A stretch of 64,000 nucleotides of DNA from a phage: assembly GCA_012646185.1 (NCBI GenBank), contig GCA_012646185.1_4706.1; one strand, written 5' to 3'. Position 1 is the first letter of the stretch; each line of letters begins with the position of its first letter. The translations under genes were made by a program, and so were the position numbers. This document shows positions 2,379-49,591 of the stretch, piece by piece. Under the pieces are notes generated by a model that did not search any database, was not told the origin of the DNA, and saw only the letters and a program-made list of their open reading frames with translations.

Positions 2379-3017
2379 TTAACCTAATTTACCACCGGCA
2401 ATGTTGGTGAAATCTTCGCCATCAGGAACTTGCAGTAGGATACGTGCCATGTCCCAGTTGGTTAATGTAATTGCTTTATCATCGATACTCAGTTCTGGTA
2501 GGTCGAGTTCATGATCATCAAACTCGTAGGAAATACTCCACGTTTCATCTGTTTTAGGATCGGTTATCAACACACCGTCTGTTACACGCATGTAGTCCGG
2601 ATGCAATTCATTACTGAATGTGCTGAACGGATCGGTGTAACATTCAGCATACCCCTCGATCTGCTGACGTTGCGCCTTCGTACGTAATTCAGGGCACGCC
2701 ATAATCAGTTGTCGAGATATGCCGTTTGCAGCACGGAAGTCTTCCACGGTGTTGCATGGCATAACCACATCGTCATGGAAGATGTTCTCCGATTGTCTCA
2801 ACAGCGTCTTACGGAGTTCAGCATAGTTTATCTGATTGAATGCGTCGAACGTTGCTAACGATTCAGCGTAAAAATGCTTTACGTGTTCGCTTGCACTGCC
2901 GAGGCTATTCATCAGCTTGTGGCCGTACTCCATAAAGCTTTTATCGAGACCGGAGGACATTTCTCCGAACCTCAGTGCACGATAACTGTCTCGTCCACCT
3001 GTAAATATTTGCGCCAT
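2379..3017 (-). CDS. hypothetical protein
   Basis: 212-aa ORF; ATG preceded by AGGAGG SD immediately after the stop of the upstream exon. Confidence 0.65.
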   Translation of the reverse strand: MAQIFTGGRDSYRALRFGEMSSGLDKSFMEYGHKLMNSLGSASEHVKHFYAESLATFDAFNQINYAELRKTLLRQSENIFHDDVVMPCNTVEDFRAANGISRQLIMACPELRTKAQRQQIEGYAECYTDPFSTFSNELHPDYMRVTDGVLITDPKTDETWSISYEFDDHELDLPELSIDDKAITLTNWDMARILLQVPDGEDFTNIAGGKLG

Positions 3018-3032
3018 TACAGGCGTCCTCCT

Positions 3033-3254
3033 TTAGCAATGGTTGTTAGTTGCTTCTATTTCATCAAGATACGGTTCTACGTCATCGCCCTCCACGAATT
3101 CGTTGAACCAACAGTCAATGGTAGAAATAACCGGTGACTGGTGTTCACATTTCTTAGATACCTTAAAAGGCACGTTATTATCCATCATACCGAGTTCGGG
3201 TCGAAAACGCCCGAAATGTTTCGCAGTCCAAATGTCTGGGACGATATGGTTGTT
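3033..3254 (-). CDS. exon 3 of beta-prime-like gene (73 codons + stop)
   Basis: Begins AAC AAC CAT ATC GTC CCA (NNHIVP, cf. E. coli QMAVHVP after DFDGD) immediately after an intron-terminal G at 3255; in frame with the micro-exon. Confidence 0.7.
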   Translation of the reverse strand, partial: NNHIVPDIWTAKHFGRFRPELGMMDNNVPFKVSKKCEHQSPVISTIDCWFNEFVEGDDVEPYLDEIEATNNHC

Positions 3255-5233
3255 CATCAAAATCTTCAGTATGAATCGCTACTTCATACCCGCAGCATTA
3301 CCTGCAGCTCCTGGTGTTACCAGGATGTTGAGAGTATATCATGCCCATATTCCAAATGGAACGTAGGACTTCCGCGCTGGATCTCGCTTGAGACCACTTA
3401 CTCGTTGAACGTTCTCCTAAACGGAGCTTCGCTGCTGATTGGACATTGTTACGTACGGTAGGCGTCCCATTAAAGGGATTTTCATTGAAGCCGCGTACAT
3501 CCGTTACCTTGTTTCTACCTTATCGGTTCCTCTTACGAGGCGTAACGGCTTTAGCCTATTCCAGCAATTCACGGAATGCATATTCTCCTTTTCAGGAGAT
3601 AAGGCCATGGCTCTGGCATCACCGTCAAAGTCCACATATCTTCAGTATGAATCGCTACTTCATACCCGCAGCATTACCTGCAGCTCCTGGTGTTACCAGG
3701 ACGGAGAGATCATCTCATCACCCACGAAGGGTGTTCCGCGCTACCCTCAGCGAATTCGAGGGACATGATCGTTGAACCTTCCACCGATAATCGGTGGCTA
3801 GGCTGCTGATTAAACATTGTACGTTGGGGTGGCATCCTGGTTCAGGACTGTCGTTGAAGCCTCCCAACATCCACTCACTTATTTCCGCCTTATCGGCTCC
3901 CATAAGGGCAGAGTGGCTTTAGCCCGTCTCAGCAATTCACGGAATTCAAGCTCTTCCTTTCAGAAGGCAGGGCCTCATCTGAAGCATTGTATCCCTTAAG
4001 GATCATCACGCTTAACCCGATGGTGTTATCCTGCGGATCGCGTTTAACCTTGGTGATTTCAAGACATTGGTTACTGCTTCGGTCAAGTGATGGGTTTCGA
4101 ACAAAGCCGCACACAATCCCATCGAACGGCGTATCAGCAATAAGCTCATCGTGCAGCTCGCTCATCATCGGATGATAATTACGGACATGTTCCGCAACGA
4201 ACGCACGCGCTGCTCTCGGTGAGTAACCACGATGGAATAACTTGGATTGGATATGTTCTTTATTGGTTAAAGTAAATGGTGCGTATGGGAAATGCAGATG
4301 ATAATAACGATGGTTCGCTGTTATCGAACTGATTACGGTACGCGTGGTGAATGGATGTAATGTACCTAATATGTTTTTACGTGTAATACCTTTCTTCTTA
4401 CCGATGAACTCATCGAAAATCGCTGCGTGGTATTGCAGTAGCTTCAATTGCACTTTCGCCATCCAGTTTTCTTTCTTTCTGGCGCTCAAAGGTGTTGTTG
4501 GATGATAGATACTGTTCAACGTACCAATAGCATCGATCGCACCTTCCATTTTGCTATCCGCATAACGACCGGTCGGCGTATTTTCGATAACGAACATCAT
4601 GGCTGCAGGAAAGCTGATATACTGACTGAAGAACTTATCACGATGGATACGGATGAATTCTCGTAGCGTGTCAACTTTCTCCATGTTCTTCGGTCCACGT
4701 AACGTCGGTCCTTTATACAAGATCTCCATGATGCGATCGAAGTTCTGTATAAAGCTATTTACGCCACGCCGTATCCCGAATACATCGAATTGCTGCTCCA
4801 GATAGTTCTTGAGTTCGATGGGTCGTTTTACATTTGGACGGTAACTGGCATCAATGAGCCACGTCATCGTTTCAAAGCTTTTGATATTCAACTCGCTTGC
4901 CAGCACGAGATGGACCAACGGGTTAATGAACGCATCGATTCCTTCAGGAACGCGCGCCCAAACCGTCGAACGAATCTCTTGTTCTGCTGGGTAGGTTACA
5001 ACCGTTTTACAGTTTGGACACACCGTGCCGAGTAGCTCACCACGATTGTAGAAACCACAACCACATTGTGGTGTGATATCCAACGTATCGCTGGAGTAAA
5101 CACGGGTGATAAAACTGTTTAATTTCTTCTTCTCTTCGACGACTTTTGTATCGTAATCATTCAACAAAATCGGCGTGAAAGGAAGTTCTGCGAGCTGTCT
5201 ATCGAAACTCACGATATCGAGCATGATGGCCAT
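3033..5233 (-). CDS. RNA polymerase beta-prime-like subunit, N-terminal fragment type (non-virion RNAP by synteny); gene interrupted by two group I introns
   Basis: Exon 1 carries a Cys4 zinc-ribbon (CGCG...CPNC), a match to the beta-prime GKRVDYSGRSVI region (RKNILGTLHPFTTRTVIS) and an NRAPTLH-like RNPSLD; the spliced product of exons 3983..5233 + 3618..3632 + 3033..3254 (495 aa) reads ...KGYNA-DFDGD-NNHIVPD..., restoring the universal NADFDGD Mg-binding motif; AGGAG SD before the ATG at 5233. Confidence 0.75.
3255..3617 (-). ncRNA. group I intron (no ORF), 3'-proximal member of a tandem pair
   Basis: On the minus strand, in canonical order: P-like GAAUUGCUGGAAU (plus 3561-3573), Q-like AAUCAGCAGC (plus 3431-3440), R-like GUUCAACGAGUAAG (plus 3397-3410), S-like GAUAUACUCU (plus 3331-3340) with P7 pairing GAGUA/UACUC; ends in G; preceding exon ends in U. 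Confidence 0.75.
3618..3632 (-). CDS. 15-nt micro-exon encoding D-F-D-G-D (catalytic aspartate triad)
   Basis: Minus strand GAC TTT GAC GGT GAT lies exactly between the two introns, in frame with exon 1 (ends ...TAC AAT GCT = YNA) and exon 3. Confidence 0.7.
3633..3982 (-). ncRNA. group I intron (no ORF), 5'-proximal member of a tandem pair
   Basis: P-like GAAUUGCUGAGA (plus 3928-3940), Q-like AAUCAGCAGCC (plus 3801-3811), R-like GGUUCAACGAUCAUG (plus 3764-3778), S-like GAUGAUCUCUC (plus 3704-3714) with P7 GAUCAU/AUGAUC; ends in G at 3633; exon 1 ends in U at 3983. Confidence 0.8.
3983..5233 (-). CDS. exon 1 of beta-prime-like gene (417 codons)
   Basis: ORF-track ORF 3929..5233 truncated at the 5' splice site; the 18 track codons after ...GYNA (SDEALPSERKSLNSVNC) are intron-encoded and overlap the intron P element. 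Confidence 0.7.
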
Positions 5234-5275
5234 GGGGTATCTCCTACAAATGAAAAAGAACGTTAGGACGTATAA

Positions 5276-5299
5276 GGGAGGGAGGTTGCCCTCCCTCCC
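5276..5299 (-). terminator. GC-rich hairpin after the shell-protein gene
   Basis: gggagggagg-ttg-cctccctccc, with a U-rich stretch ~15 nt downstream on the minus strand. Confidence 0.5.
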
Positions 5300-5325
5300 G
5301 TCAGATTACATCGAACGTTCTTCCA

Positions 5326-7221
5326 TTAGAACAGGTTGAATGCCCCACCCATGTTGTTAACGCCAACATTCGGACGATCGCTACGTGCGTAGATGTTACC
5401 GGAGATGTTACCCAGACCACGAGCACGTGCTGCCATGTTACCACGAACAGCGGTACCTGCCAGATGCTGGATGTTCTCAGGACGGATGGTGAAGCCAGCA
5501 TCAGCCGCAGCTTCGATCAGCGCCTGCAGTGCTAACGGATCGAAGTCGTAACGCATTGCCCAGCCGGTTTGTTCCCAGCTACCAGACAGAACACGATCGA
5601 TGATTTCGTGACGAGCGACAACACGCTGAGACATCGTCATATCGGTACGGTCGAAGCTGTCTTCCCAAGCTTCTACGGTATCCGGGTTAGTGATGTTCAT
5701 CATGTACAGATCGTCCATATCACGAATATCGTGACGGTGACCATCCTGGTGGTTGTAGTAACCCAGCGGGATACGGTTACCGGTAGCGTAGACCAGCGGT
5801 TGGCCGTATTGATATTTCTTGCTGAAGCAACCCAGGGTAGTATCATCGAAGGCACGGTAAAGTGCTTTGTAGCCTTCAGAGACTTCCTGAACTTTACCTT
5901 CAACATTACCCGTATAGATCTTCTCAGCCGCCGGGATCATACGCAGCAGCCAGCTGTATTCGCCTTCTTCCGGTACGTCGATAGAAATCAGCAGAGACGG
6001 ATACAGAACCTGTTGCAGGAACTTGTAAATCTGCTCGTTGGTTTGCGTAGACAGATCCAGCGGTGCAGTCACTTCAGGATCCAGCACCATCGCCAGAGCA
6101 CCTGGGTTATGCGGACCAATACCACGAGCCGCGTTGCTGATTAAAGACTGTGCCCATGCCATGCCGCTGTTCAGCGTAGCGATGGTACCAATCAGACCCA
6201 GCACGAAGCTGTTCGGTGTGAACGCATCCAGCTCCAGCGGGTAAGCGCTGGTCATCACGTAACGCGGCTGGTATTGTACAGTCGGCGGTACCGGATAGCC
6301 GTTAACCAGAACAGGGCCTTGGTTGAAGGTCGGGTTCTGCGGGCTGTAGGTCAGGTCGATGTAACCGGTGGTGGCGACCAGACGCTGTTGACTATCGTAA
6401 TCGCTCATCGCTTGACGGATGCGGTTAGAGATAGTTACAGTGATGTCAGAACGCACAGGGTTACCAACAATATCACTGTCCTGCATACCGCTGGTGTTGT
6501 ACTGAACGCTGCTGATTGGCTGATCGCTTGCCATCATGCCCAGGTTGAACTGCGGCAGACCCAGTTTATCACCGAGACGGATTTCGATTGCGGTCTGGAT
6601 TGCGTTATCTGCAGCAGACAGCAGGGTGGTTGCCAGATGCGCAGATTCAGCGGTGATTTCATTGGTCACCACAGCCAGACCAGCGATACGAACAGTACCG
6701 TTAGACTTACCGCCAATAGCTGAATACATTGCCGCCATGACTTCGTTGATGAACGTACCGTTCAGGTTATCAACCCAGGTACGCGGTACCAGAATGTTAC
6801 CATGCGGACCTTGTTCTTCACGACGCGGCAGCGGAGCCAGACCAGCAACCAGCGGCAGGACGTAACCGAAGAAGTGGTTATGATCACCAACTTTTGCACC
6901 GCTCATAACAACCAGGGTCGGATACGGTACGCTGTACTGGTTCGGGTCAACCGCAACAAAGATGAAGTCGTCTTTGAACTGGGTATCTTCCAGATATTTC
7001 TCCATCAGACGACGGAGATTCAGTACCTGCTCGGAGCCGGTATTACGGCTGATACGACGGCTCAGTGTACGGTTGATCGTACGCATCGTATGAGTTACTT
7101 TAGGACGGTCGGCAAAATCTGCAGCGGTTTCCAGCGCCTCATCAGCACGTTGTGCGGTGCGGGTTTCAGCTGCACGAATTTCTACATTATCGTTACCGTT
7201 ATTACGTACGTCTAAGCCCAT
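5326..7221 (-). CDS. chmA: chimallin-like phage nucleus shell protein (putative)
   Basis: 631-aa ORF, strong AAGAGGAA SD, codon usage typical of an abundant protein, early-promoter motif ~70 nt upstream, immediately upstream of a beta-prime-like RNAP gene as in phiKZ (gp54-gp55); identification rests on size and synteny, not on a catalytic motif. Confidence 0.55.
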   Translation of the reverse strand: MGLDVRNNGNDNVEIRAAETRTAQRADEALETAADFADRPKVTHTMRTINRTLSRRISRNTGSEQVLNLRRLMEKYLEDTQFKDDFIFVAVDPNQYSVPYPTLVVMSGAKVGDHNHFFGYVLPLVAGLAPLPRREEQGPHGNILVPRTWVDNLNGTFINEVMAAMYSAIGGKSNGTVRIAGLAVVTNEITAESAHLATTLLSAADNAIQTAIEIRLGDKLGLPQFNLGMMASDQPISSVQYNTSGMQDSDIVGNPVRSDITVTISNRIRQAMSDYDSQQRLVATTGYIDLTYSPQNPTFNQGPVLVNGYPVPPTVQYQPRYVMTSAYPLELDAFTPNSFVLGLIGTIATLNSGMAWAQSLISNAARGIGPHNPGALAMVLDPEVTAPLDLSTQTNEQIYKFLQQVLYPSLLISIDVPEEGEYSWLLRMIPAAEKIYTGNVEGKVQEVSEGYKALYRAFDDTTLGCFSKKYQYGQPLVYATGNRIPLGYYNHQDGHRHDIRDMDDLYMMNITNPDTVEAWEDSFDRTDMTMSQRVVARHEIIDRVLSGSWEQTGWAMRYDFDPLALQALIEAAADAGFTIRPENIQHLAGTAVRGNMAARARGLGNISGNIYARSDRPNVGVNNMGGAFNLF

Positions 7222-41550: not shown

Positions 41551-44500
41551 TTATTTGGCGTCGTTAAAATAAATATCAACAGCTCGTTCCGTTGCGTAGA
41601 GGAGACCAAGATTCACAGTCCCAACCACTTCCGGTGAACCGATGATACGGTTAGCGATACTGGTGCCACTGAAGATAGCATCAAGGGTGTGCCCGTCTTC
41701 GGTTTTGTTCACACCATGACCCACGGAAGAGACAACGGATTTCGCTTGAGCTGCGAAGGTACCTTTATCACCCATCCCCGCACCAAGGTCGTAACGCATG
41801 AAAATACGGATAGCGATCTGGTTCTCGCCTAACGGATTACCGTCTATTCTCACGTTACTGTTATTGATACGCCCCGTAGTTGCTTCGTTGAGTTTCAGTT
41901 CCTTAACGCGTTTAGCTCGTGCTTTATCTGCCTCACCGACGAGCGCTGCCATGGTTTCACTCATATCCTCAATCTGAGCGCGGTACAGTACATCGATCTG
42001 TACAACTTCACCATGAACGTCAGCACGTGGGTTATACTGACTCATACGACGTAATGCTTCAACGGCTTCCTGACTCTCATCACTCAGATCGGTCGCAATC
42101 GGTTCTTCCAGTGTTGCAAGGATCGTTCGTGGTTCAACATGATCGCCGATTTTCACGAGACCACGAATGTTGAGATGGGCGTCAACGATGAGCGTACGGC
42201 TCTTAATCGATGGTGTTACGAGACGATCAGCAAGATTGTCGAAGATATACGAACTGTCCTCGTGAGTCTCTGGAATATCCAGAATACCGACAAGAGACAG
42301 AACACCTGCGCGCCAAACAACCTGACCTGGGTTCCACCAATCGCGTTTAAAATAAAGACGATGGAAAACCACCACATCCTGATCCTTAACGCGATCCCCG
42401 ACTTTATAATCGGTAATGAGATCGTGAGGATAATACTTACCTGGTCCTTTCCCGATTATCGTACCGAGCTGGAAAACCTCTTCCCCTAACTCTGGATCGT
42501 CGTATTGTATCGTAAGCGCAGTTTTGGTGACCTTCTTAACAACACCATCGCCTTGGGCAGCTGCTGCAAAGAGCTTACCAACACGATGCGCGATGACAGT
42601 CTCACCGCCTGTGCGCCATGGTTGTACATCGTAACCTTCAGCAGCAATCATGCGGTTGTGTTGGATCCCGACGAAGACCAGACGTTTTCCATCATCACGG
42701 TCTACAGCCGGAACAGCTAACGCTGACGTACTCATTACCGATGAGATGCCGTCTGTCTTTTCATCGAATGGTCGTGTTTCACCATACACCGACACGATAT
42801 TAGCATTAGGTGCAAGGTAAGCAGAGATACCCACATCCCCACTATCTTTCGTACCCTCTGACACAATACCAACATCGGACTTGTCGTATTCACGATCGCG
42901 TGCGCGTCGAAGCGATGTCTTTGAACGACCCCCGATACCGGTCATCGTTGCTTCTTCACCCTGCTTGATATCCAGCATCGGGTTGGTTTCATCGATCACG
43001 ATGGACGCGCTGTCGTCGAGAATTTGGTTCCAGACGCTTACCGGACTGATTGAGATTTTCTGACGATTTCCTTGACTGCTGTTCTCATTCTGACGAATAG
43101 CGCCAACCAGATCCTTATACACCAATTCAGCGAACTTATCGTACGTTTTAAAACGTTGATAGTTCACATCGTTGGTGTTAGGTGCCCAGTCATCCAGAAG
43201 CAGTTCAACAGCACGCAGTAACAACATGGCGAAATCGGTAGGTTCTCCCATGTTCTGTAGCAACGTACGGCTTACCGGATCAACGAAAAGACGCTCCATG
43301 AGTTCAAGTTCGCGTAAATGACGAACCTTAAGTCCGGCACCATCGACAACGTTAAAATAGATATCTCGATTGTCGAAAGCACCGCGAGCGTAACCGATGT
43401 AGTTACGGTACTCGTTAAATCCGCCCAGCAACAACGTCGTCATGCGATCGTCTTTACTGAAGATCAAACTTTCGTCATCAAAGCTCACCGCGAATTCATC
43501 GGGCGCTAGACCCATACGAGAACCGCGAGGTACCGTACGATAGTTCGCTTTAAGATGTTCTAATAACGGGGTAAGTCCACCCAGATAACTTAGAACAACA
43601 CCAACCGGAATACGTACACCCATGAATTCAAGATCGGCGGCTTCGATCGGCATCTTAGCCGCATTGATACCGAAGAAATCGGGGAACGTCCCTACAGGTG
43701 TTGGTGTTTGTCCTGACTGACAGATATAGAGCTGATTGCGTTTATCGATTGCTAAGAATTCACCCAGCGTGTTACGCGCAAACGTCAGGAGCCCTTCGGC
43801 TAACTGTTCGTTGAACCGATCTTCCCCGATGAACTCCGGCAATGTCTTTGTATCAAGACGTATATCCCAATCAGCAAATTGGATTTGGGTATAGTTGCGT
43901 GCAAGCACAGCGAAGTAATACGGGACTTTGACGGCCGGATCAAAGACGTTACCACGTTTTAACGTGGTTAAGGGCGAAGACTTATCGTAATACATCGCTG
44001 TAAGTTGGCGTGTTAGCCAACGACCGGCGTTATTAACGACACGCTCTGAACGTTTAACAAACACCTTACCGTAGGCGGTACTCAACGCAACTTCGGATGA
44101 TGATACCTTTCTAATAGGTTTATCAACACGTTGTTTACGCATCCGGTATTTGATGCCGTTAACAACATAAATGCCGTCCTTACGAACCTTCGGCAACATC
44201 ACCGGGAACGTGGTTGGGACACCGCCTACAGGAGCCAGTTTAATCGTGATGACTTGATAATCCCCCATCACGTCAACAACATCTTCAACTTTATATCCCG
44301 TGACAGGGTAACCTGCCTGTTGTACGGCAACAACAGCGGCTGCGATGTCCTTTTGCATCACGTGTTCAACGTAATGTTTATCCCACACCGCAAGCGTCGA
44401 TTTACATAGGCTCTTATCGACGATAACATCCGCTTCCGGCATAACCTTTGCTGGCGCTAATTTCGCGGCTTTTGGTTTAACTTCAACATACTCAGCAAGT

Positions 44501-45897
44501 GTTAATCCAGAACCGTCGGGTGCTTCGATTTCGTGAATGGCGTCAGCATTACGCATCGCTGCTTTATATTGGACGCCGCTTAACTGACCCGCATCAGCCA
44601 GATCGCTCGCGCGTACCAACACCGCATCCGATAACGACTGAATATATTCACCGTGTGTTTTCGGTAGCGTTGCTGCGTCAAAGACATCAACCTTTTCTTC
44701 TTCGGTATCGTCGGTAACGACTTCGAAGAGATCGTCGGTAATGTCCTGATCTTCATCGGGTTGGAAATCTGGTTGTACTTCTACCCCGGGTACTTCACGG
44801 ACATCTTCGAACGAGCGTTCTACAATGGCGTTCCACGCATCAGCGTCATCGTCTTCATCCGACCCGCCGACCAACTCCGCTTCTAACTCATCGGGATCAA
44901 GAACGGTAGCCAGATCCTCACCGTTAGGAAGCACGACGTCGCGATCATCATACTCCGCATCCGGGCTGTCTGCAAGAATATCTCGCTCTTGACGAAGAAC
45001 CTGTTCCTCTTCTTGTTTCTGTTCTTCTTCATTCGCACTCTGCGACCACAAACGTGTTACCGCCATCATCCAACGACGCTGGAAGGTTTCAAGTGTCGTT
45101 TTATCGAGTTCTTCCCCTTCCTTAACAAGCCCGGTACGCCATTCCTCCAGCAGGCCCAGATTCAGCGTAAAGAAGTACACACCGTCCGTAAATACAACGT
45201 TAAGCTTATCCAGCGTGGCTCTGTCTAACGAAGCCATCGTACTGTTCTCACGATCGGTTCCCAACCAGCGGAAGAAGTCAAAGAACGACAGCTCCTCCGG
45301 CGTAGCGAAATTCATGAGGTTGTTACGGGTCGGTGCCTGTTGCGTGGTACGCATCAACGAAATCTTCGGCAATGTTGACGGTATACGGAACAACAGAAAG
45401 TGTTGACGATCGCTTTGCTGTGCGATTTCGTTGGCTTTCGACCAAATTGTTTTACGTACGTTGAACCATTCATCATACCAACGGGTGAGCGTTGGACGAT
45501 AAATGTACATGTGGTTAAGATGCGCGTAGTTAGCCACGATCTGAGCGTTGATGTTTTTCTCCACCGTACTTAGATCAGTGACCAAACGAAAACGACGATG
45601 CGATGCACGGTAATCCAGTTTCGCACGCGGTAGCTGGAATCGCTGATCCCGTCGAGGTGCGCCTTGCTTGGTTGCAAGGTCATCCGCGAACGATATCCAA
45701 AGCTGGGCACTTTCTTTGCTCAGCATGTATTCGTTTTCTGGAGGACCTATCAATGATGGATCCGTTGCGGTGTAATGATAGACAGCATAACGCGGCAGCT
45801 GCAATAGCTGCACTAAACGTAATCTCGGTGACAATAGCTCTTGGTAGCGTCTGACACCGAACTGTCGGTAGTAATCAAGGTATTTAAGTTTTGCCAT
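41551..45897 (-). CDS. RNA polymerase beta-like subunit, large N-terminal fragment type (virion RNAP by synteny), putative
   Basis: 1448-aa ORF directly downstream of the beta-prime-like gene and next to the giant tail-protein gene, as in phiKZ gp178-gp181; C-terminal DLGAGMGDKG...RIIGSP resembles the beta GDKxAGRHGNKG / NPLGVPSRMNIGQ region; assignment is tentative. Confidence 0.5.
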   Translation of the reverse strand: MAKLKYLDYYRQFGVRRYQELLSPRLRLVQLLQLPRYAVYHYTATDPSLIGPPENEYMLSKESAQLWISFADDLATKQGAPRRDQRFQLPRAKLDYRASHRRFRLVTDLSTVEKNINAQIVANYAHLNHMYIYRPTLTRWYDEWFNVRKTIWSKANEIAQQSDRQHFLLFRIPSTLPKISLMRTTQQAPTRNNLMNFATPEELSFFDFFRWLGTDRENSTMASLDRATLDKLNVVFTDGVYFFTLNLGLLEEWRTGLVKEGEELDKTTLETFQRRWMMAVTRLWSQSANEEEQKQEEEQVLRQERDILADSPDAEYDDRDVVLPNGEDLATVLDPDELEAELVGGSDEDDDADAWNAIVERSFEDVREVPGVEVQPDFQPDEDQDITDDLFEVVTDDTEEEKVDVFDAATLPKTHGEYIQSLSDAVLVRASDLADAGQLSGVQYKAAMRNADAIHEIEAPDGSGLTLAEYVEVKPKAAKLAPAKVMPEADVIVDKSLCKSTLAVWDKHYVEHVMQKDIAAAVVAVQQAGYPVTGYKVEDVVDVMGDYQVITIKLAPVGGVPTTFPVMLPKVRKDGIYVVNGIKYRMRKQRVDKPIRKVSSSEVALSTAYGKVFVKRSERVVNNAGRWLTRQLTAMYYDKSSPLTTLKRGNVFDPAVKVPYYFAVLARNYTQIQFADWDIRLDTKTLPEFIGEDRFNEQLAEGLLTFARNTLGEFLAIDKRNQLYICQSGQTPTPVGTFPDFFGINAAKMPIEAADLEFMGVRIPVGVVLSYLGGLTPLLEHLKANYRTVPRGSRMGLAPDEFAVSFDDESLIFSKDDRMTTLLLGGFNEYRNYIGYARGAFDNRDIYFNVVDGAGLKVRHLRELELMERLFVDPVSRTLLQNMGEPTDFAMLLLRAVELLLDDWAPNTNDVNYQRFKTYDKFAELVYKDLVGAIRQNENSSQGNRQKISISPVSVWNQILDDSASIVIDETNPMLDIKQGEEATMTGIGGRSKTSLRRARDREYDKSDVGIVSEGTKDSGDVGISAYLAPNANIVSVYGETRPFDEKTDGISSVMSTSALAVPAVDRDDGKRLVFVGIQHNRMIAAEGYDVQPWRTGGETVIAHRVGKLFAAAAQGDGVVKKVTKTALTIQYDDPELGEEVFQLGTIIGKGPGKYYPHDLITDYKVGDRVKDQDVVVFHRLYFKRDWWNPGQVVWRAGVLSLVGILDIPETHEDSSYIFDNLADRLVTPSIKSRTLIVDAHLNIRGLVKIGDHVEPRTILATLEEPIATDLSDESQEAVEALRRMSQYNPRADVHGEVVQIDVLYRAQIEDMSETMAALVGEADKARAKRVKELKLNEATTGRINNSNVRIDGNPLGENQIAIRIFMRYDLGAGMGDKGTFAAQAKSVVSSVGHGVNKTEDGHTLDAIFSGTSIANRIIGSPEVVGTVNLGLLYATERAVDIYFNDAK

Positions 45898-46080: not shown

Positions 46081-49000
46081 CCTTGTCTTCGCCTCAGGTC
46101 GCTACGCTGAGACCGCCTGCATGGATACGTACATCACAGGCTGCTTGCACTTTCATGCAAGAGGAGACTATATCAAACCGGCAGCGCAACCTGCTACGGT
46201 AACCTACACTTCGAAGACGCTCGTCCTCTACAGGGTGGTAAATCCCTTAGTCGTTGAACCTGCGTTGTTTCACATTCTTGTTTGTAAGAATGTCGTATTA
46301 CTACGCAACAACCAGGCTGCTGATTGCCCATTGTTTCGCACCTTAGCACCGCTTACGCGGCTTTTCTTTCAGCCTAAGCCTCTTACGGAGGTAGTGCATC
46401 TCAACTGTTGTTTCTGCCTTTCGGCACCTCATGGGTCGTTGAGCTTTAGGGGTTCCCAGCATTTCGTAGGTTTTTCAAGCACTCCCTTTCGGGAATACCG
46501 GACTCATTATTAGCTTATTTATTCAAGTATCTGAAATCCCACTTATCTTTACGTCGTTTATCGCACTTGATGTCAGGATGATTAACACGATGCCTAATAG
46601 TTGTTGCCGATAGCTGGCTGAGATTCTCAGCAGATCGTGCGCCAAGAACAACGAGTTTTGTGTCGTCTGGACGCGTAACTTCTACTGCCCGATAATGCTT
46701 ACGTAACACATCACGCCAATATTCACGACGTTCTGGTTCAGCATACTCAAGCATGTAACCGTTAACATCTACTAAACCGTAGCTTTCGTTTAATCGAGAG
46801 GTAGCGGCTGGTTTACTAATACCGATTGCTTTAGCCGCATCGACCACGGTTTTATACGGGGTCTCATTACCGTCTCTATCTACAACCACAATGAAATCTG
46901 GACGTGAATCGAGTAGCTGCTGTCTGCGTTCGACGGCTTGTTGATGAAGCACCATGTTAACGTGTTCGAACCCGTAACCTTCTGGACCGTGCCACCCTGG
47001 ATTGTTATTCGCTCGATAAAGTACCGTCGCAGATTTCACTCCAGTCTGACGTGACGCCTCGTTTGCACTATGAACAACCGTGGTAGAGCCGTCAGGGTGA
47101 TATATCCGTATCTGGTTCATTATACCGGAACCAATGAAGTTACCATCAGCTGATTTAATATCCGGCCATGGTTGAGGATCATCTTTGAATTTAACCACCC
47201 AGCGGTTATTAAACAGTTTGACTTTTCGAACATGTTTGCCCATTGTCGTATCCGTAACACCTGCGACTACTGATGCCTGTGTGATACTCAGGTACTCAGT
47301 AACGGTATCGTTCCATGTATCCCAAAGCAGAACCGGTTTATTGTCGTCGCGTAAACCGTATTCGATGGCGTGTAGAACGTTACGACTTCTGGTCGCCCAT
47401 TCAAGATTATCGAGAGAGTAATTCCATTTGTCGGCATCGAGATGATTAACGTCCAACTTATCGACATTAGCCGGATATTCCCGCCACGCCAACATCAAGC
47501 AGCGATGCAGAACCTTAGTTCTCGTTACATCCCGACAATCATGACGTAGACTAATGAATACGTAATTATCCTTTTTCGGATACGATCTACATTCCTGACC
47601 GTCTTTGCGGCGAATAACTCGTCCTTTCTCATTTATCAGATAACGGGTGTGTCCAGGAATGACACGATAACCAGGGTACTTAGCGATTTCGTAAGCAGGC
47701 TCGAACCGATAGGATAAATTATCAACATCCCAGTTAGATTCGTCACCATCAACAAACATCGCTTTGACGTACTTCTGTGTTTCAATATCAACCAGGATGT
47801 TTTTGTGTGCGATACAAATCAATGCTGGGATATTGAATTCACGACCGGCTAAGATAACCATGTCGCCATTTCTCGGTATCACGACGTGGGTATCACGATA
47901 CCGTAAATTTCCATAGCCGTCTATTTCAATCCAGCTTAGAAACGGAATGGATATAAACTCTTTTTCAGATACTCGCCATTTAAACATCTTAATACCTATT
48001 TAATACTAAACATCATATTAATAGGTTTAAAAGTTAAAAATGACAGAAAATGGCTAAATTGAATCACCGCCTAAACCGGCGAGGTACGGGGCAGGAACAA
48101 TAGTAGTTTCTACGAATGATGCATTAGGTAACCAGTCGGGGTATTCCCATGCGATAAATCGTTCATCCGTTATTGGTTCCCAGTTACTATCCAGTTCGGT
48201 TTTCGGTTTTGCCGCAACGGTTGTACGTGCGTAACAGGTTAACGGGATAACGGATTGCATACCGGATACCGGATAACGTGTTACCATCGCAGCCAGGTTA
48301 TTCCAGTACTTATAACCAGCGATATAAATAAGCTCGGTGTAAGTAATGGGGTGAACATCCGCACCAGGCTTATTCAACATCTCCGGAGGTAATTCACTCA
48401 TACCACGGAATAACCGAAACGAATCATTGTTCACATAGACGAGGCAAAGATATCGTCCATTGACCATGATAGGCTCGTTACGCACGCCAGGATCGCTTAA
48501 GGTGTTCAGTAAACGTTCTATTCCGTCCCAGGTTGTAAAGTCATCGATGGTGTCTGGATCAAGCGTGACACGTTCACGTTCCATCGTTTCGGTATCAATA
48601 AGTTCAACTTCTGTAACGTCACGAACAAATATTTCCTGCAAAATACCGGTACGTAACGCATGTTGCGTTACTGGGAGAGCAGCTTTACTCATCTGGTATA
48701 ACCCTAACTGAACTGCGGTACAGGAAGGCTGGTTAGGCGACCCTAATACCTCCGTTGTGGGGTTAATTGCCGAAATAACGTTACGGGTTGAGTTCCAAAC
48801 GCGACGTGAACCAAACTTCCCTTGGAAGATCCCTTTCTTACCTTGGAACATATCCAACAACAAAGCGTAGATATCGTTAAACGTTCTCTGTAAGCTCCAG
48901 CGTTGGCCGTCGTAAACGGGATCGGAATAATCTTTTAATCCATCAGGGACGGTGTTAGAAATTGCAAGGAAACGACGATACAACTCCGTGATTTCTTGCT

Positions 49001-49529
49001 CGCTTTCATACCCACCTTCTTTTACTTCTATTTCACGTAAACCCGCAGGTAAAACCAGTAGATGACGAGTCATCGCTTTGAACATGTTCTCTTCGACGAC
49101 TTTAATTCGTAGCTCTCGTTGAGCTGAACCCGTTGAAACGAACTTAATATCAGCGACGTGTTGTGCAAAGAACCCGTACCCTGTCTGTCCTGTTAACGCA
49201 TCAGACGCAACGAAGTCGCGTTGTTCAGGATCCCAACGCGCGTACGCCTTCCCCGACATGATATCGCCATAGAGGTGTTTTAGTCGAATGAGACGATCGT
49301 AGATGACAGGATGTAGGATTTCAACCTTGCATTCAATCACCGCAAATCGACGGTCTCGATCTTCACTACCCGCACTACCAAAGATGGTGTATGAATAGAA
49401 ACCGTCATCGTGGAAATTACCGGTGCTTGGATCACGAATGCTCATGCTCGTGATCTTGGGGAGAAAACGTAACTGCTGTTTATCGAGGTGTAAAATACTA
49501 ATATTAAACGGCTCTCTGACTTTAGCCAT
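45901..49529 (-). CDS. RNA polymerase beta-prime-like subunit, N-terminal fragment type (virion RNAP by synteny); gene interrupted by a group I intron
   Basis: Exon 1 shows GLFxxxIFGP-like (DGFYSYTIFGS), QGKFGSRRVWNSTRNVISAINP (cf. [26 protein letters not shown]) and TRYPVSG (cf. NRAPTLH); splicing 48063..49529 to 45901..46080 gives ...YLAGLGGD-FDGD-TVSVNV... (548 aa); AAGAGGAG SD before the ATG at 49529. Confidence 0.75.
46081..48062 (-). ncRNA. group I intron carrying an HNH homing-endonuclease ORF (mobile intron)
   Basis: Minus strand: 5' exon ends GGT GAT (U); ORF 46515..47987 lies in the 5' part; core follows with P-like GAAAUGCUGGGAAC (plus 46451-46465), Q-like AAUCAGCAGCC (46314-46324), R GUUCAACGACUAAG (46246-46260), S GAUAUAGUCUC (46164-46174), P7 GACUA/UAGUC; ends in G. 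Confidence 0.8.
46515..47987 (-). CDS. HNH homing endonuclease (intron-encoded)
   Basis: 490 aa; HNH_3-type motif VNHLDADKWNYSLDNLEWATRSRNVLH; C-terminal helix-turn-helix-like AKAIGISKPAATSRL; lies entirely within the intron. Confidence 0.8.
   Translation of the reverse strand: MFKWRVSEKEFISIPFLSWIEIDGYGNLRYRDTHVVIPRNGDMVILAGREFNIPALICIAHKNILVDIETQKYVKAMFVDGDESNWDVDNLSYRFEPAYEIAKYPGYRVIPGHTRYLINEKGRVIRRKDGQECRSYPKKDNYVFISLRHDCRDVTRTKVLHRCLMLAWREYPANVDKLDVNHLDADKWNYSLDNLEWATRSRNVLHAIEYGLRDDNKPVLLWDTWNDTVTEYLSITQASVVAGVTDTTMGKHVRKVKLFNNRWVVKFKDDPQPWPDIKSADGNFIGSGIMNQIRIYHPDGSTTVVHSANEASRQTGVKSATVLYRANNNPGWHGPEGYGFEHVNMVLHQQAVERRQQLLDSRPDFIVVVDRDGNETPYKTVVDAAKAIGISKPAATSRLNESYGLVDVNGYMLEYAEPERREYWRDVLRKHYRAVEVTRPDDTKLVVLGARSAENLSQLSATTIRHRVNHPDIKCDKRRKDKWDFRYLNK
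48063..49529 (-). CDS. exon 1 of virion-type beta-prime-like gene (489 codons)
   Basis: ORF-track ORF 48054..49571 trimmed at both ends: start at the SD-supported ATG 49529; the last two track codons (S, I) and the stop are intron sequence. Confidence 0.65.
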
Positions 49530-49591
49530 GGAGACACTCCTCTTTACCACCACCGGCTGCGGCGGTATCATCTGAACACACGAGAGACGTA

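What the first reader, a model, noticed from the sequence alone, without database searches (positions are those of the whole stretch)
3262..3701. The tandem introns share an identical 64-nt 3' terminal segment while the rest has diverged
Plus 3262-3325 and 3638-3701 are identical over 64 nt. On the minus strand this is the 3' terminal domain of each intron, with P9-like hairpins CCUGGUAACACCAGG and GUAUGAA...UUCAUAC. Upstream parts are clearly homologous but carry many substitutions, including the compensatory P7 changes. Identity confined to the 3' domain suggests recent gene conversion between the copies or strong constraint on a shared 3' splice-site structure.
Basis: seen in the sequence. 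Interest (0 to 1): 0.6.

Follow-up and report, generated by a model that had tools for sequence, protein, structure and literature searches.

The report
Twin introns sharing a copied tail
[quoted passage not shown] Their last 64 bases are identical, most likely because one intron's 3' folding domain was copied onto the other; this is a clear but fairly ordinary case of recombination between mobile introns.

Summary
Window 3262-3325 and 3638-3701 are identical over 64 nt, while the rest of the two elements is only about 57% identical (P about 4e-14).

- **What they are.** Both are HEG-less, T4 td-like (IA2) group I introns on the minus strand of a Goslar-like chimallivirus. They split the nvRNAP beta' gene at NA|DFDGDA|MNN. 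Splicing restores a 497-aa protein that aligns gap-free to phiKZ gp55.
- **What the block is.** It is the P9-P9.1-P9.2 3'-terminal domain plus the UGAAGAU tail. T4 td, the phiKZ gp55 intron and a Vibrio phage intron carry the same domain.
- **Relatives.** Twenty-three related phage loci show 12 intron architectures at four insertion sites within about 25 nt (phiKZ uses a fifth); none is intron-free.
- **Mosaic.** Phages with intron 1 alone carry this same block. Intron 2 in phages without intron 1 differs at 10 of 64 positions. The window's intron 2 is intron-2-like through its core and switches to intron-1-like at 10 of 10 diagnostic sites exactly at the base of P9 (Fisher P 3e-11).
- **Reading.** This is gene conversion of a self-contained RNA domain, probably intron 1 to intron 2. 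Structural constraint alone does not explain it, because the stems covary freely.
- **Timing.** A second genome shares the homogenised state; a third has re-diverged.

New member of a known kind; moderate interest.

The parts
3983..5233 (-). Exon 1 of the non-virion RNA polymerase beta'-N gene; ends ...ILKGYNA (AAU GCU|).
   Evidence: ORF. 98% identical to Goslar gp247. The junction is fixed by Goslar and other alleles that lack intron 1 (AATGCC|GACTT). The spliced product aligns gap-free to phiKZ gp55 (7ogp_A, E 1e-74). Pfam RNA_pol_Rpb1_2.
3633..3982 (-). Intron 1 (i1), 350 nt, HEG-less td-like group I intron inserted between the Ala and Asp codons of NADFDGD; ends ...GAAGAUAUGUG|.
   Evidence: Rfam Intron_gpI 23.1 bits, E 0.0025, full-length model. 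Covariation-supported P1-P9.2 fold including the P3/P7 pseudoknot. Present alone in L011-L013 and absent at exactly these boundaries in Goslar-type alleles.
3638..3701 (-). Copy 1 of the identical 64-nt block, the 3'-terminal domain of i1: P9 3701-3685, P9.1 3683-3666, P9.2 3665-3645, tail UGAAGAU 3644-3638.
   Evidence: coordinates; three hairpins, covariation. The same block is in the intron-1-only phages: L012 identical, L011 and L013 one mismatch each.
3615..3632 (-). 18-nt micro-exon GAC UUU GAC GGU GAU GCC = DFDGDA (the three catalytic aspartates).
   Evidence: Synonymous differences from the Goslar exon (GAC GGT GAC GCT). Contiguous with exon 3 in intron-2-less alleles.
3258..3614 (-). 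Intron 2 (i2, 'W' variant), 357 nt, HEG-less td-like group I intron inserted between Ala and Met (GCC|...|AUG); ends ...GAAGAUUUUG|.
   Evidence: Rfam Intron_gpI 27.4 bits, E 1.3e-4. Core is 90% identical to Goslar intron 2. Absent at exactly these boundaries in L011-L013 (GACGCG|ATGAAC). Fold supported.
3262..3325 (-). Copy 2 of the identical 64-nt block, the 3'-terminal domain of i2: P9 3325-3309, P9.1 3307-3290, P9.2 3289-3269, tail 3268-3262. Inferred conversion tract.
   Evidence: 10 of 10 diagnostic sites are intron-1-like here, against 5 of 108 in the core. The breakpoint lies between alignment columns 303 and 305, at the base of P9. Fisher P 3e-11.
3033..3257 (-). Exon 3, MNNHIVPDIW...NNHC* (74 aa).
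   Evidence: Annotated in Goslar as a separate hypothetical protein, gp185. This exact protein is listed in 328 blocks of the metagenome index.
3604..3617 (-). P1 of i2: exon GCC + A paired with UGGC. The 5' splice-site pair is C-G rather than the usual U.G.
   Evidence: Alignment column pair 6/15: U.G in 11 sequences, C-G in the two i2W sequences of that alignment. L029 has the same GCC| site.
3972..3985 (-). P1 of i1: exon GCU + UC paired with GAGGC (U.G at the splice site).

Best explanation
The 64-nt block is the P9-P9.1-P9.2 3'-terminal folding domain, plus the UGAAGAU tail, of two T4 td-like (subgroup IA2-type) group I introns. The introns lie 18 nt apart in the nvRNAP beta' gene of a Goslar-like nucleus-forming jumbo phage, inside the codons of the catalytic NADFDGD motif. 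The two introns are old paralogues whose cores differ by about 44%. Their 3' domains are identical because a short, non-reciprocal recombination event (non-allelic gene conversion) overwrote one intron's 3' domain with the other's. The most likely direction is intron 1 as donor and intron 2 as recipient, in the ancestor of the lineage that carries both introns. Shown: the identity, the intron boundaries, the RNA fold, the mosaic ancestry and the position of the breakpoint. Inferred: the direction, the DNA-level mechanism (recombination between direct repeats 376 nt apart in a recombination-proficient phage), and the reason the tract ends at the base of P9. On that last point, the three hairpins are self-contained, so they can be swapped without breaking the long-range, co-adapted P3-P8 pairings of the core. 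Conversions reaching into the core would make mismatched helices in an essential gene and would be purged.
For: (1) The block is 64/64 identical against 57% elsewhere; 0 of 200,000 shuffles reach it. (2) Exact intron boundaries are shown by presence/absence alleles in 23 related phage loci and by the gap-free alignment of the spliced protein to phiKZ gp55. (3) The group I fold has 99.5% of cells paired and 36 of 93 pairs with compensatory changes, against 1-4 in slid controls. P9, P9.1 and P9.2 have 10 of 17 pairs compensatory across three intron types. (4) Mosaic: the window's intron 2 differs from Goslar intron 2 by 10% in the core, yet in the block it is identical to intron 1 and differs from Goslar intron 2 at 10 of 64. 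All 10 diagnostic sites in the block are intron-1-like against 5 of 108 in the core, with the breakpoint at columns 303/305 (Fisher P 3e-11). (5) Direction: the block is native to intron 1 in three phages that have no intron 2 at all (L012 identical, L011 and L013 one mismatch). Intron 2 carries a different block in all seven phages that lack intron 1. (6) The block is not an assembly quirk: the independent assembly L029 has both introns, and both of its blocks are identical to the window's. (7) Patch exchange of this domain recurs: the P9.2 plus tail of L009 intron 1 is identical to that of intron iY, which sits at another site in other phages.
Against: No direct evidence for splicing or for the recombination event; all of this is comparative inference. 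The direction could be the reverse, with intron 1 receiving the block from intron 2W before spreading. The 3' domain is conserved family-wide: P9.1 and the tail are identical in an unrelated Vibrio phage intron, and the L9.2 loop GUAGCGA is invariant in all 26 copies read. Part of the similarity is therefore constraint plus common descent. Both introns score below the Rfam gathering threshold (27.4 and 23.1 against 50). Intron 2 has an atypical C-G pair at its 5' splice site, so its activity is unproven.
Confidence: 0.8

Rival explanations
1. No recombination: both 3' domains are kept identical by purifying selection on a shared 3' splice-site structure.
For: The domain is an old, conserved feature. 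T4 td, the phiKZ gp55 intron, 201phi2-1 and several Vibrio phage introns have the same three-hairpin architecture and similar sequence. The L9.2 loop GUAGCGA is invariant in all 26 copies read, and P9.1 is nearly invariant.
Against: Orthologous intron 2 in seven Goslar-type phages differs at 9-10 of 64 positions, and L009's two blocks differ at 7 of 64. P9 and P9.2 stems vary with compensatory changes, so stem sequence is free. Divergence between window i2 and Goslar i2 is higher in the block (16%) than in the core (10%), the opposite of what stronger constraint predicts.
Confidence: 0.04
2. Gene conversion in the opposite direction: the block is native to the W variant of intron 2 and was copied onto intron 1, which then spread, with the intron-1-only phages losing or never gaining intron 2.
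For: The mosaic test alone does not polarise the event. Intron 1's 5' P2 region is also shared with an intron 2 variant (6% divergence from Goslar i2 over columns 14-44, against 42% in the core). Intron 1 may therefore be a habitual recipient at both ends.
Against: Intron 1 with this block occurs in five backgrounds, three of them without intron 2. Intron 2W occurs only alongside intron 1 (three genomes). All intron 2 copies away from intron 1 carry the other block.
Confidence: 0.15
3. The tandem pair is a recent duplication of one intron, and the block is what is left of the original identity.
For: Direct repeat with 376-nt spacing. The two elements have the same fold and family.
Against: The cores are 44% diverged, with dozens of compensatory double changes. 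Each intron exists alone at its own site in other phages. Intron 2's core is orthologous to Goslar intron 2 (90%), not to intron 1.
Confidence: 0.01

Closest known systems
T4 td intron (subgroup IA2 phage group I introns)
   Same: Same 3'-terminal architecture: P9 hairpin, P9.1 hairpin, P9.2 hairpin with an ...A(A/G)CGA loop, then a UGAAC/GAU tail a few nt before the terminal G. My recalled td sequence was verified 79/79 in the T4 td gene. The core also has the same layout, with P7.1 between P7 and P3'.
   Different: td carries a GIY-YIG endonuclease ORF (from established knowledge) and sits in a nucleotide-metabolism gene as a single intron. Here there is no ORF, the host gene is an RNA polymerase, and two introns lie 18 nt apart.
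phiKZ gp55 / gp56 / gp56.1 intron (nvRNAP beta'-N gene)
   Same: Same gene, same synteny next to chimallin, same catalytic motif. Related ribozyme (Rfam 75.6 bits) with a clearly homologous P9-P9.1-P9.2-tail.
   Different: phiKZ has one intron, inserted 3 nt upstream (AAU|GCU, between N and A), and it carries an HNH endonuclease ORF upstream of the ribozyme core.
[quoted passage not shown]
   Same: Several similar group I introns in one phage gene, so alternative use of splice sites is possible.
   Different: The primary paper was not held, so spacing and similarity could not be compared. Here the exon between the introns is only 18 nt (13 nt in relatives with three introns) and encodes the catalytic aspartates.
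PhiPA3 gp210 intron endonuclease in a chimallivirus RNAP gene (Birkholz et al. 2024, PMC11620839)
   Same: Mobile group I intron in an RNA polymerase subunit gene of a nucleus-forming jumbo phage. Intron-plus and intron-minus alleles compete during co-infection.
   Different: That intron encodes the endonuclease and, according to the review read, targets a virion RNAP gene. The paper does not mention Goslar, tandem introns or NADFDGD. The window's two introns have no ORF.

Membership tests
Group I self-splicing intron (Rfam RF00028) | Conserved core helices P3-P8 with the P3/P7 pseudoknot, plus P1, P2 and P9 | tested here: met
   RNAalifold plus manual P7 on 13 sequences: 93 pairs, 99.5% of cells paired, 36 pairs with compensatory changes against 1-4 in slid controls. 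P7 covaries at 2 of 5 pairs.
Group I self-splicing intron (Rfam RF00028) | Score at or above the curated gathering threshold (50 bits) | tested here: not met
   27.4 bits (3671-3310) and 23.1 bits (3992-3686), E 1.3e-4 and 2.5e-3 in a 1.4-kb search, both full-length model matches. Nothing at the gathering threshold. Relatives with the same 3' domain pass: phiKZ 75.6, Vibrio phage D181 102.5.
Group I self-splicing intron (Rfam RF00028) | U.G wobble pair at the 5' splice site in P1 | tested here: inconclusive
   Intron 1: met (GCU|UC with GAGGC). Intron 2: the pair is C-G (GCC|A with UGGC) in the window, L009 and L029, whereas Goslar-type intron 2 has U.G. No alternative register gives the required Asp-Ala-Met product with a terminal G.
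Group I self-splicing intron (Rfam RF00028) | Terminal G at the 3' splice site and precise, in-frame exon ligation | tested here: met
   Both introns end in G. Removal gives ...LKGYNADFDGDAMNNHIVPD..., gap-free against phiKZ gp55. Alleles lacking one or the other intron have exactly the predicted ligated sequence.
Group I self-splicing intron (Rfam RF00028) | Guanosine-dependent self-splicing activity | not testable with these tools
   Needs in vitro transcription and splicing, or RT-PCR from infected cells.
Subgroup IA2 (T4 td-like) | 3' extension P9-P9.1-P9.2 and extra helices between P7 and P3' | tested here: met
   P9, P9.1 and P9.2 are supported by covariation and match td helix by helix. 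One covarying hairpin (P7.1; 6 of 6 pairs compensatory) lies between P7 and P3'. A separate P7.2 was not resolved, so assignment to IA2 rather than another IA subgroup is by resemblance to td.
Mobile intron with homing endonuclease | Intron-encoded endonuclease ORF | tested here: not met
   No ORF beyond read-through in either intron. Related introns iX (Goslar, L025-27, L031) and iY (L017) do carry HNH_3 plus NUMOD1/I-HmuI-like ORFs.
Non-allelic gene conversion between paralogous repeats | A tract whose ancestry conflicts with that of the flanking sequence, with a definable breakpoint | tested here: met
   Window i2: i1-like at 5 of 108 diagnostic sites in the core and 10 of 10 in the block. 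Best breakpoint at columns 303/305; Fisher P 3e-11.

The most novel reading that the evidence does not exclude
The tandem HEG-less introns are not just passengers. By occupying sites 6 nt upstream and 12 nt downstream of the iX insertion site, and 8 nt downstream of the iY site, they destroy the recognition sequences of the I-HmuI-like HNH endonucleases carried by introns iX and iY of competing Goslar-like phages. On this reading they act as armour in intron-endonuclease warfare of the kind shown for PhiPA3 against phiKZ. The concerted evolution of their 3' domains, and the re-tuned C-G P1 of intron 2, would then be adaptations that let two near-identical ribozymes splice correctly around an 18-nt exon. 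A related possibility is that they occasionally skip that exon and produce a catalytically dead beta' subunit.
Probability: 0.1. Interest if true: 0.75.

Novelty: new member of a known kind. Interest (0 to 1): 0.48.

Why it matters
This is a clean natural example of concerted evolution between two ribozymes in one transcript. The exchanged unit coincides exactly with a self-contained RNA folding domain, which says something about which parts of a group I intron are modular.

The surrounding locus is more striking than the block itself. Goslar-like phages that are otherwise mostly 91-99% identical in the flanking genes carry 12 different intron architectures at four insertion sites within about 25 bp of the NADFDGD codons. 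Micro-exons are as short as 13 nt, and none of the 24 genomes has an intron-free allele.

That makes the locus a promising system for studying intron competition, endonuclease immunity and splice-site discrimination in nucleus-forming phages. It also shows that current Goslar annotation splits an essential polymerase subunit into unrelated 'hypothetical' genes.

Tried and rejected
- **Rfam at gathering threshold:** found nothing in this region; only the E-value mode did.
- **Viral-contig scan for part of the block:** gave three loci (L005-L007) where the match lies inside a Lys/Gly/Ala-rich coding sequence. These are chance matches.
- **Genome-collection scan for the P9.2 motif:** gave one hit in a Rhodocyclaceae MAG with no intron context, within the number expected by chance.
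- **Independent mobile insertion:** considered and rejected. The block is an integral domain of the td-like family.
- **Pairing partner for the invariant L9.2 loop GUAGCGA:** checked by eye. UCGCU occurs in i1 and iY but not in i2, so no common partner; dropped.
- **Folding the isolated 5' ends to settle P1 of intron 2:** uninformative, because the P3 strand mispairs out of context.
- **Alternative splice registers for intron 2** that would restore a U at the 5' splice site: all fail on the terminal G or on the reading frame.
- **Literature:** the primary Twort paper (PMC22036) is not held. Searches for Goslar plus intron, NADFDGD plus intron, and gene conversion plus group I intron plus phage found no description of this locus.
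Full report
**Observation.** Window 3262-3325 and 3638-3701 are identical over 64 nt. I aligned the two elements over their full lengths (350 and 357 nt). The 64-nt run is the longest by a factor of four. Identity outside it is 172/301. The approximate chance of such a run is 4e-14, and none of 200,000 column shuffles reached it.

**What the region is.** The window is a close relative (about 96%) of Escherichia phage Goslar, a nucleus-forming jumbo phage. On the minus strand, downstream of the chimallin gene, lies the homologue of Goslar gp247, annotated 'RNA polymerase beta subunit'. The layout on the minus strand is:
- exon 1, 5233-3983
- intron 1 (i1), 3982-3633
- an 18-nt micro-exon, 3632-3615 (GAC UUU GAC GGU GAU GCC)
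- intron 2 (i2), 3614-3258
- exon 3, 3257-3033

Removing the two segments gives a 497-aa protein reading ...LKGYNADFDGDAMNNHIVPD.... It matches Pfam RNA_pol_Rpb1_2. It also aligns without a gap across the junctions to the phiKZ nvRNAP beta'-N subunit gp55/gp56.1 (PDB 7ogp_A, E 1e-74). The introns therefore split the codons of the universally conserved catalytic NADFDGD motif.

**Boundaries.** The boundaries do not rest on prediction alone. Related phages lack one intron or the other at exactly these positions. Examples are AATGCC|GACTT in Goslar and GACGCG|ATGAAC in L012 and L013.

**Are they group I introns?** Rfam finds nothing here at its gathering threshold. In E-value mode both segments give full-length Intron_gpI matches: 27.4 bits (E 1.3e-4) and 23.1 bits (E 2.5e-3). 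The stronger evidence is comparative. I aligned 13 distinct i1 and i2 sequences from related phages.
- The consensus fold has P1, P2, P3, P4-P6, P7.1, P8, P9, P9.1 and P9.2; I added the P7 pseudoknot by hand.
- 99.5% of cells pair.
- 36 of 93 pairs carry compensatory double changes, against 1-4 when the partners are slid by 1-3 columns.
- Both introns end in G. Neither contains an ORF.

**What the block is.** On the minus strand the block reads: P9 UCCUGGUAACACCAGGA, then G, then P9.1 CUGCAGGUAAUGCUGCGG, then P9.2 GUAUGAAGUAGCGAUUCAUAC, then UGAAGAU. It folds into exactly these three hairpins (-25.3 kcal/mol, z = -3.7). Across intron types, 10 of the 17 stem pairs show compensatory changes.

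This is the classic 3'-terminal domain of T4 td-like (IA2) phage introns.
- The td 3' end, which I recalled and then verified 79/79 in the T4 td gene, has the same order of P9, P9.1, P9.2 and a UGAACAU...G tail.
- The phiKZ gp55 intron has it too (Rfam 75.6 bits).
- So does an intron in Vibrio phage D181. Its P9.1 hairpin and UGAAGAU tail are identical to the window's (Rfam 102.5 bits).
- A BLAST of the block alone finds 18 phage records. They include 201phi2-1 (RNAP beta gene) and Vibrio phages, where two of the hits are annotated terminase and ribonucleotide reductase.

The domain is therefore old and partly constrained in sequence. It is not a separate insertion.

**The locus in relatives.** I collected 23 further Goslar-like loci from viral, metagenome and ENA assemblies. 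In the flanking genes most are 91-99% identical to the window. They carry four intron types at four sites within about 25 nt:
- iY in the Tyr codon
- i1 after Asn-Ala
- iX in the Phe codon
- i2 after Asp-Gly-Asp-Ala

phiKZ uses a fifth site, between Asn and Ala. Twelve architectures occur:
- iY alone
- iY with an HNH gene
- iY+iX
- iY+iX with an HNH gene
- iY+iX+i2 (exons of 13 nt between the introns)
- iX alone
- iX with an HNH gene
- iX with an HNH gene, plus i2 (Goslar itself)
- i1 alone (L011-L013)
- i1+i2 (window, L009, L029)

No intron-free allele was seen. i1 never co-occurs with iX or iY. The endonucleases of iX and iY are HNH_3 plus NUMOD1/I-HmuI-like proteins.

**Why the block is identical.** i2 exists in two forms. 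The Goslar-type form (i2G) occurs in seven phages, never with i1. The window-type form (i2W) occurs in three phages, always with i1.
- The cores of i2W and i2G differ by 10%. Both differ from i1 by 42-44%.
- In the 64-nt block the pattern reverses: i2W is identical to i1 and differs from i2G at 10 positions.
- I scored the columns that distinguish i1 (taken from i1-only phages) from i2G. The window's i2 is i1-like at 5 of 108 core sites and at 10 of 10 block sites.
- The best breakpoint lies between alignment columns 303 and 305, the first base pair of P9 (Fisher P 3e-11).

This is the signature of a gene-conversion tract.

The block is native to i1. L012, which has no i2, carries the identical 64-mer, and L011 and L013 differ by one base each. 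I therefore infer that i1 was the donor. The reverse direction is not excluded.

Constraint alone does not explain the identity, for three reasons:
- i2G differs at 10 of 64 positions.
- The P9 and P9.2 stems vary freely with compensation.
- The block is, if anything, more diverged between i2W and i2G (16%) than the core is (10%).

**Timing.** L029 comes from an independent assembly. Its i1 and i2 differ from the window's elsewhere (97.7% and 99.2% identity). Both of its blocks are identical to the window's. The homogenised state is therefore probably ancestral to the i1+i2 lineage, and it is not an assembly artefact.

L009 has re-diverged. Its two blocks differ at 7 positions, all in P9.2. 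Its i1 P9.2 plus tail is identical to that of iY in other phages, although iY's core cannot be aligned with i1 (about 45% identity). Patch exchange of this hairpin has therefore happened more than once, and between introns at different sites.

**Why only this domain (inference).** The tract starts at the base of P9 and ends 4-5 nt before the splice site, where the two introns differ (AUGUG| and UUUG|). The three hairpins are local and self-contained. The core helices P3 and P7 are long-range, and between i1 and i2 they are full of co-adapted double changes. A conversion reaching into the core would create mismatched helices in a ribozyme that must splice for an essential polymerase to be made. 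I think selection passes only whole-module swaps. In addition, the 3' domain was the part similar enough (about 84%) to recombine.

The 5' P1-P2 module looks mosaic too. In the P2 region, i1 and i2G differ by about 6% over columns 14-44. In the 5' module, i2W differs from i2G by 45%.

**Unexplained.** In all three i2W genomes the 5' splice-site pair in P1 is C-G (exon GCC, guide UGGC). In i1, i2G, iX and iY it is the near-universal U.G. No other register gives the required product.

One speculative reading: i1 and i2G share the same guide sequence and the same GCU 5' exon. A tandem i1+i2 pair would then need i2 to be re-tuned to keep the two 5' splice sites distinct.

**Comparison and novelty.** Group I introns in chimallivirus RNAP genes are known (phiKZ gp55/56; PhiPA3, PMC11620839). 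Several similar introns in one phage gene are known from Twort (as summarised in PMC3073962). Gene conversion is the normal currency of intron mobility.

I found no description of this locus, of tandem introns in NADFDGD, or of 3'-domain homogenisation. I file the introns as new members of the td-like family. The identical block is an ordinary recombination outcome, well resolved here. The population-level picture around it is the more interesting result.

Noticed in passing
window 3604-3617 (-); also L009 and L029: Intron 2 of the window type has a C-G pair at its 5' splice site (exon GCC|A with guide UGGC), not the near-universal U.G wobble. Goslar-type intron 2 has GCU|U with AGGC. The exon change is a synonymous Ala codon.
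   Followed up: partly
window 3938-3982 and 3570-3614 (-); alignment A2 columns 7-44: The 5' P1-P2 module is also mosaic. Intron 1's P2 is nearly identical to that of Goslar-type intron 2 (about 6% divergence, against 42% in the core). The window's intron 2 has a very different P1-P2 (45% from Goslar's) with compensatory P2 changes and no known source.
   Followed up: partly
L008-L018, L023-L032 (NADFDGD region of each): Twelve intron architectures at four insertion sites within about 25 nt among 24 genomes, most of them 91-99% identical in the flanking genes. Up to three introns are separated by 13-nt exons. No intron-free allele was seen. i1 never co-occurs with iX or iY, and i2W occurs only with i1.
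   Followed up: partly
L009 5252-5601 (intron 1) compared with L010 5244-5608 (intron iY): In L009 the P9.2 hairpin plus tail of intron 1 (GGGTATGGAGTAGCGAACCATACTGAAGAT) is identical to that of intron iY of other phages, although L009 has no iY and the cores cannot be aligned. L009's intron 2 P9.2 has two compensatory stem changes of unknown origin.
   Followed up: partly
all i1, i2 and iY copies (alignment A3, plus L023-L032): The 7-nt L9.2 loop GUAGCGA is invariant in all 26 copies read while its stem covaries. This suggests a tertiary contact or a protein-binding site. No common complementary partner was found.
   Followed up: partly
window 46144-47987 (-), flanked by ORFs 48054-49571 and 41551-45897: A third group I intron (Rfam 56.3 bits, 46144-46530) is preceded by a 490-aa HNH_3 endonuclease ORF (46515-47987). 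It lies between two large ORFs. It has no similarity to the 64-nt block.
   Followed up: partly
L001 (Goslar NC_048170) 3824-5631: Goslar's annotation treats exon 1 as a complete gene (gp247), exon 3 as a hypothetical protein (gp185) and intron 2 as unannotated spacer. Only the iX ribozyme is marked. The true gene has two introns, and the 13-nt exon CGACGGTGACGCT lies between them.
   Followed up: yes
L021 (phiKZ NC_004629) 2745-4125: The phiKZ gp55 intron is inserted between the Asn and Ala codons (AAT|GCT), a fifth site in the same motif. HNH gp56 lies upstream of the ribozyme core, and the 3' domain is homologous to the window's block.
   Followed up: yes
L017 851-2273; L025-L027, L031: Endonuclease genes sit at different places in otherwise similar introns. 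In iY of L017 the HNH ORF is near the 5' end. In iX it is in a 3' hairpin. Goslar's iX+HEG and that of L025-27/L031 have different 3' ends, and the P9 stem of iY (UUACGUG...ACGUAAG) resembles the stem that encloses Goslar's iX endonuclease gene.
   Followed up: no
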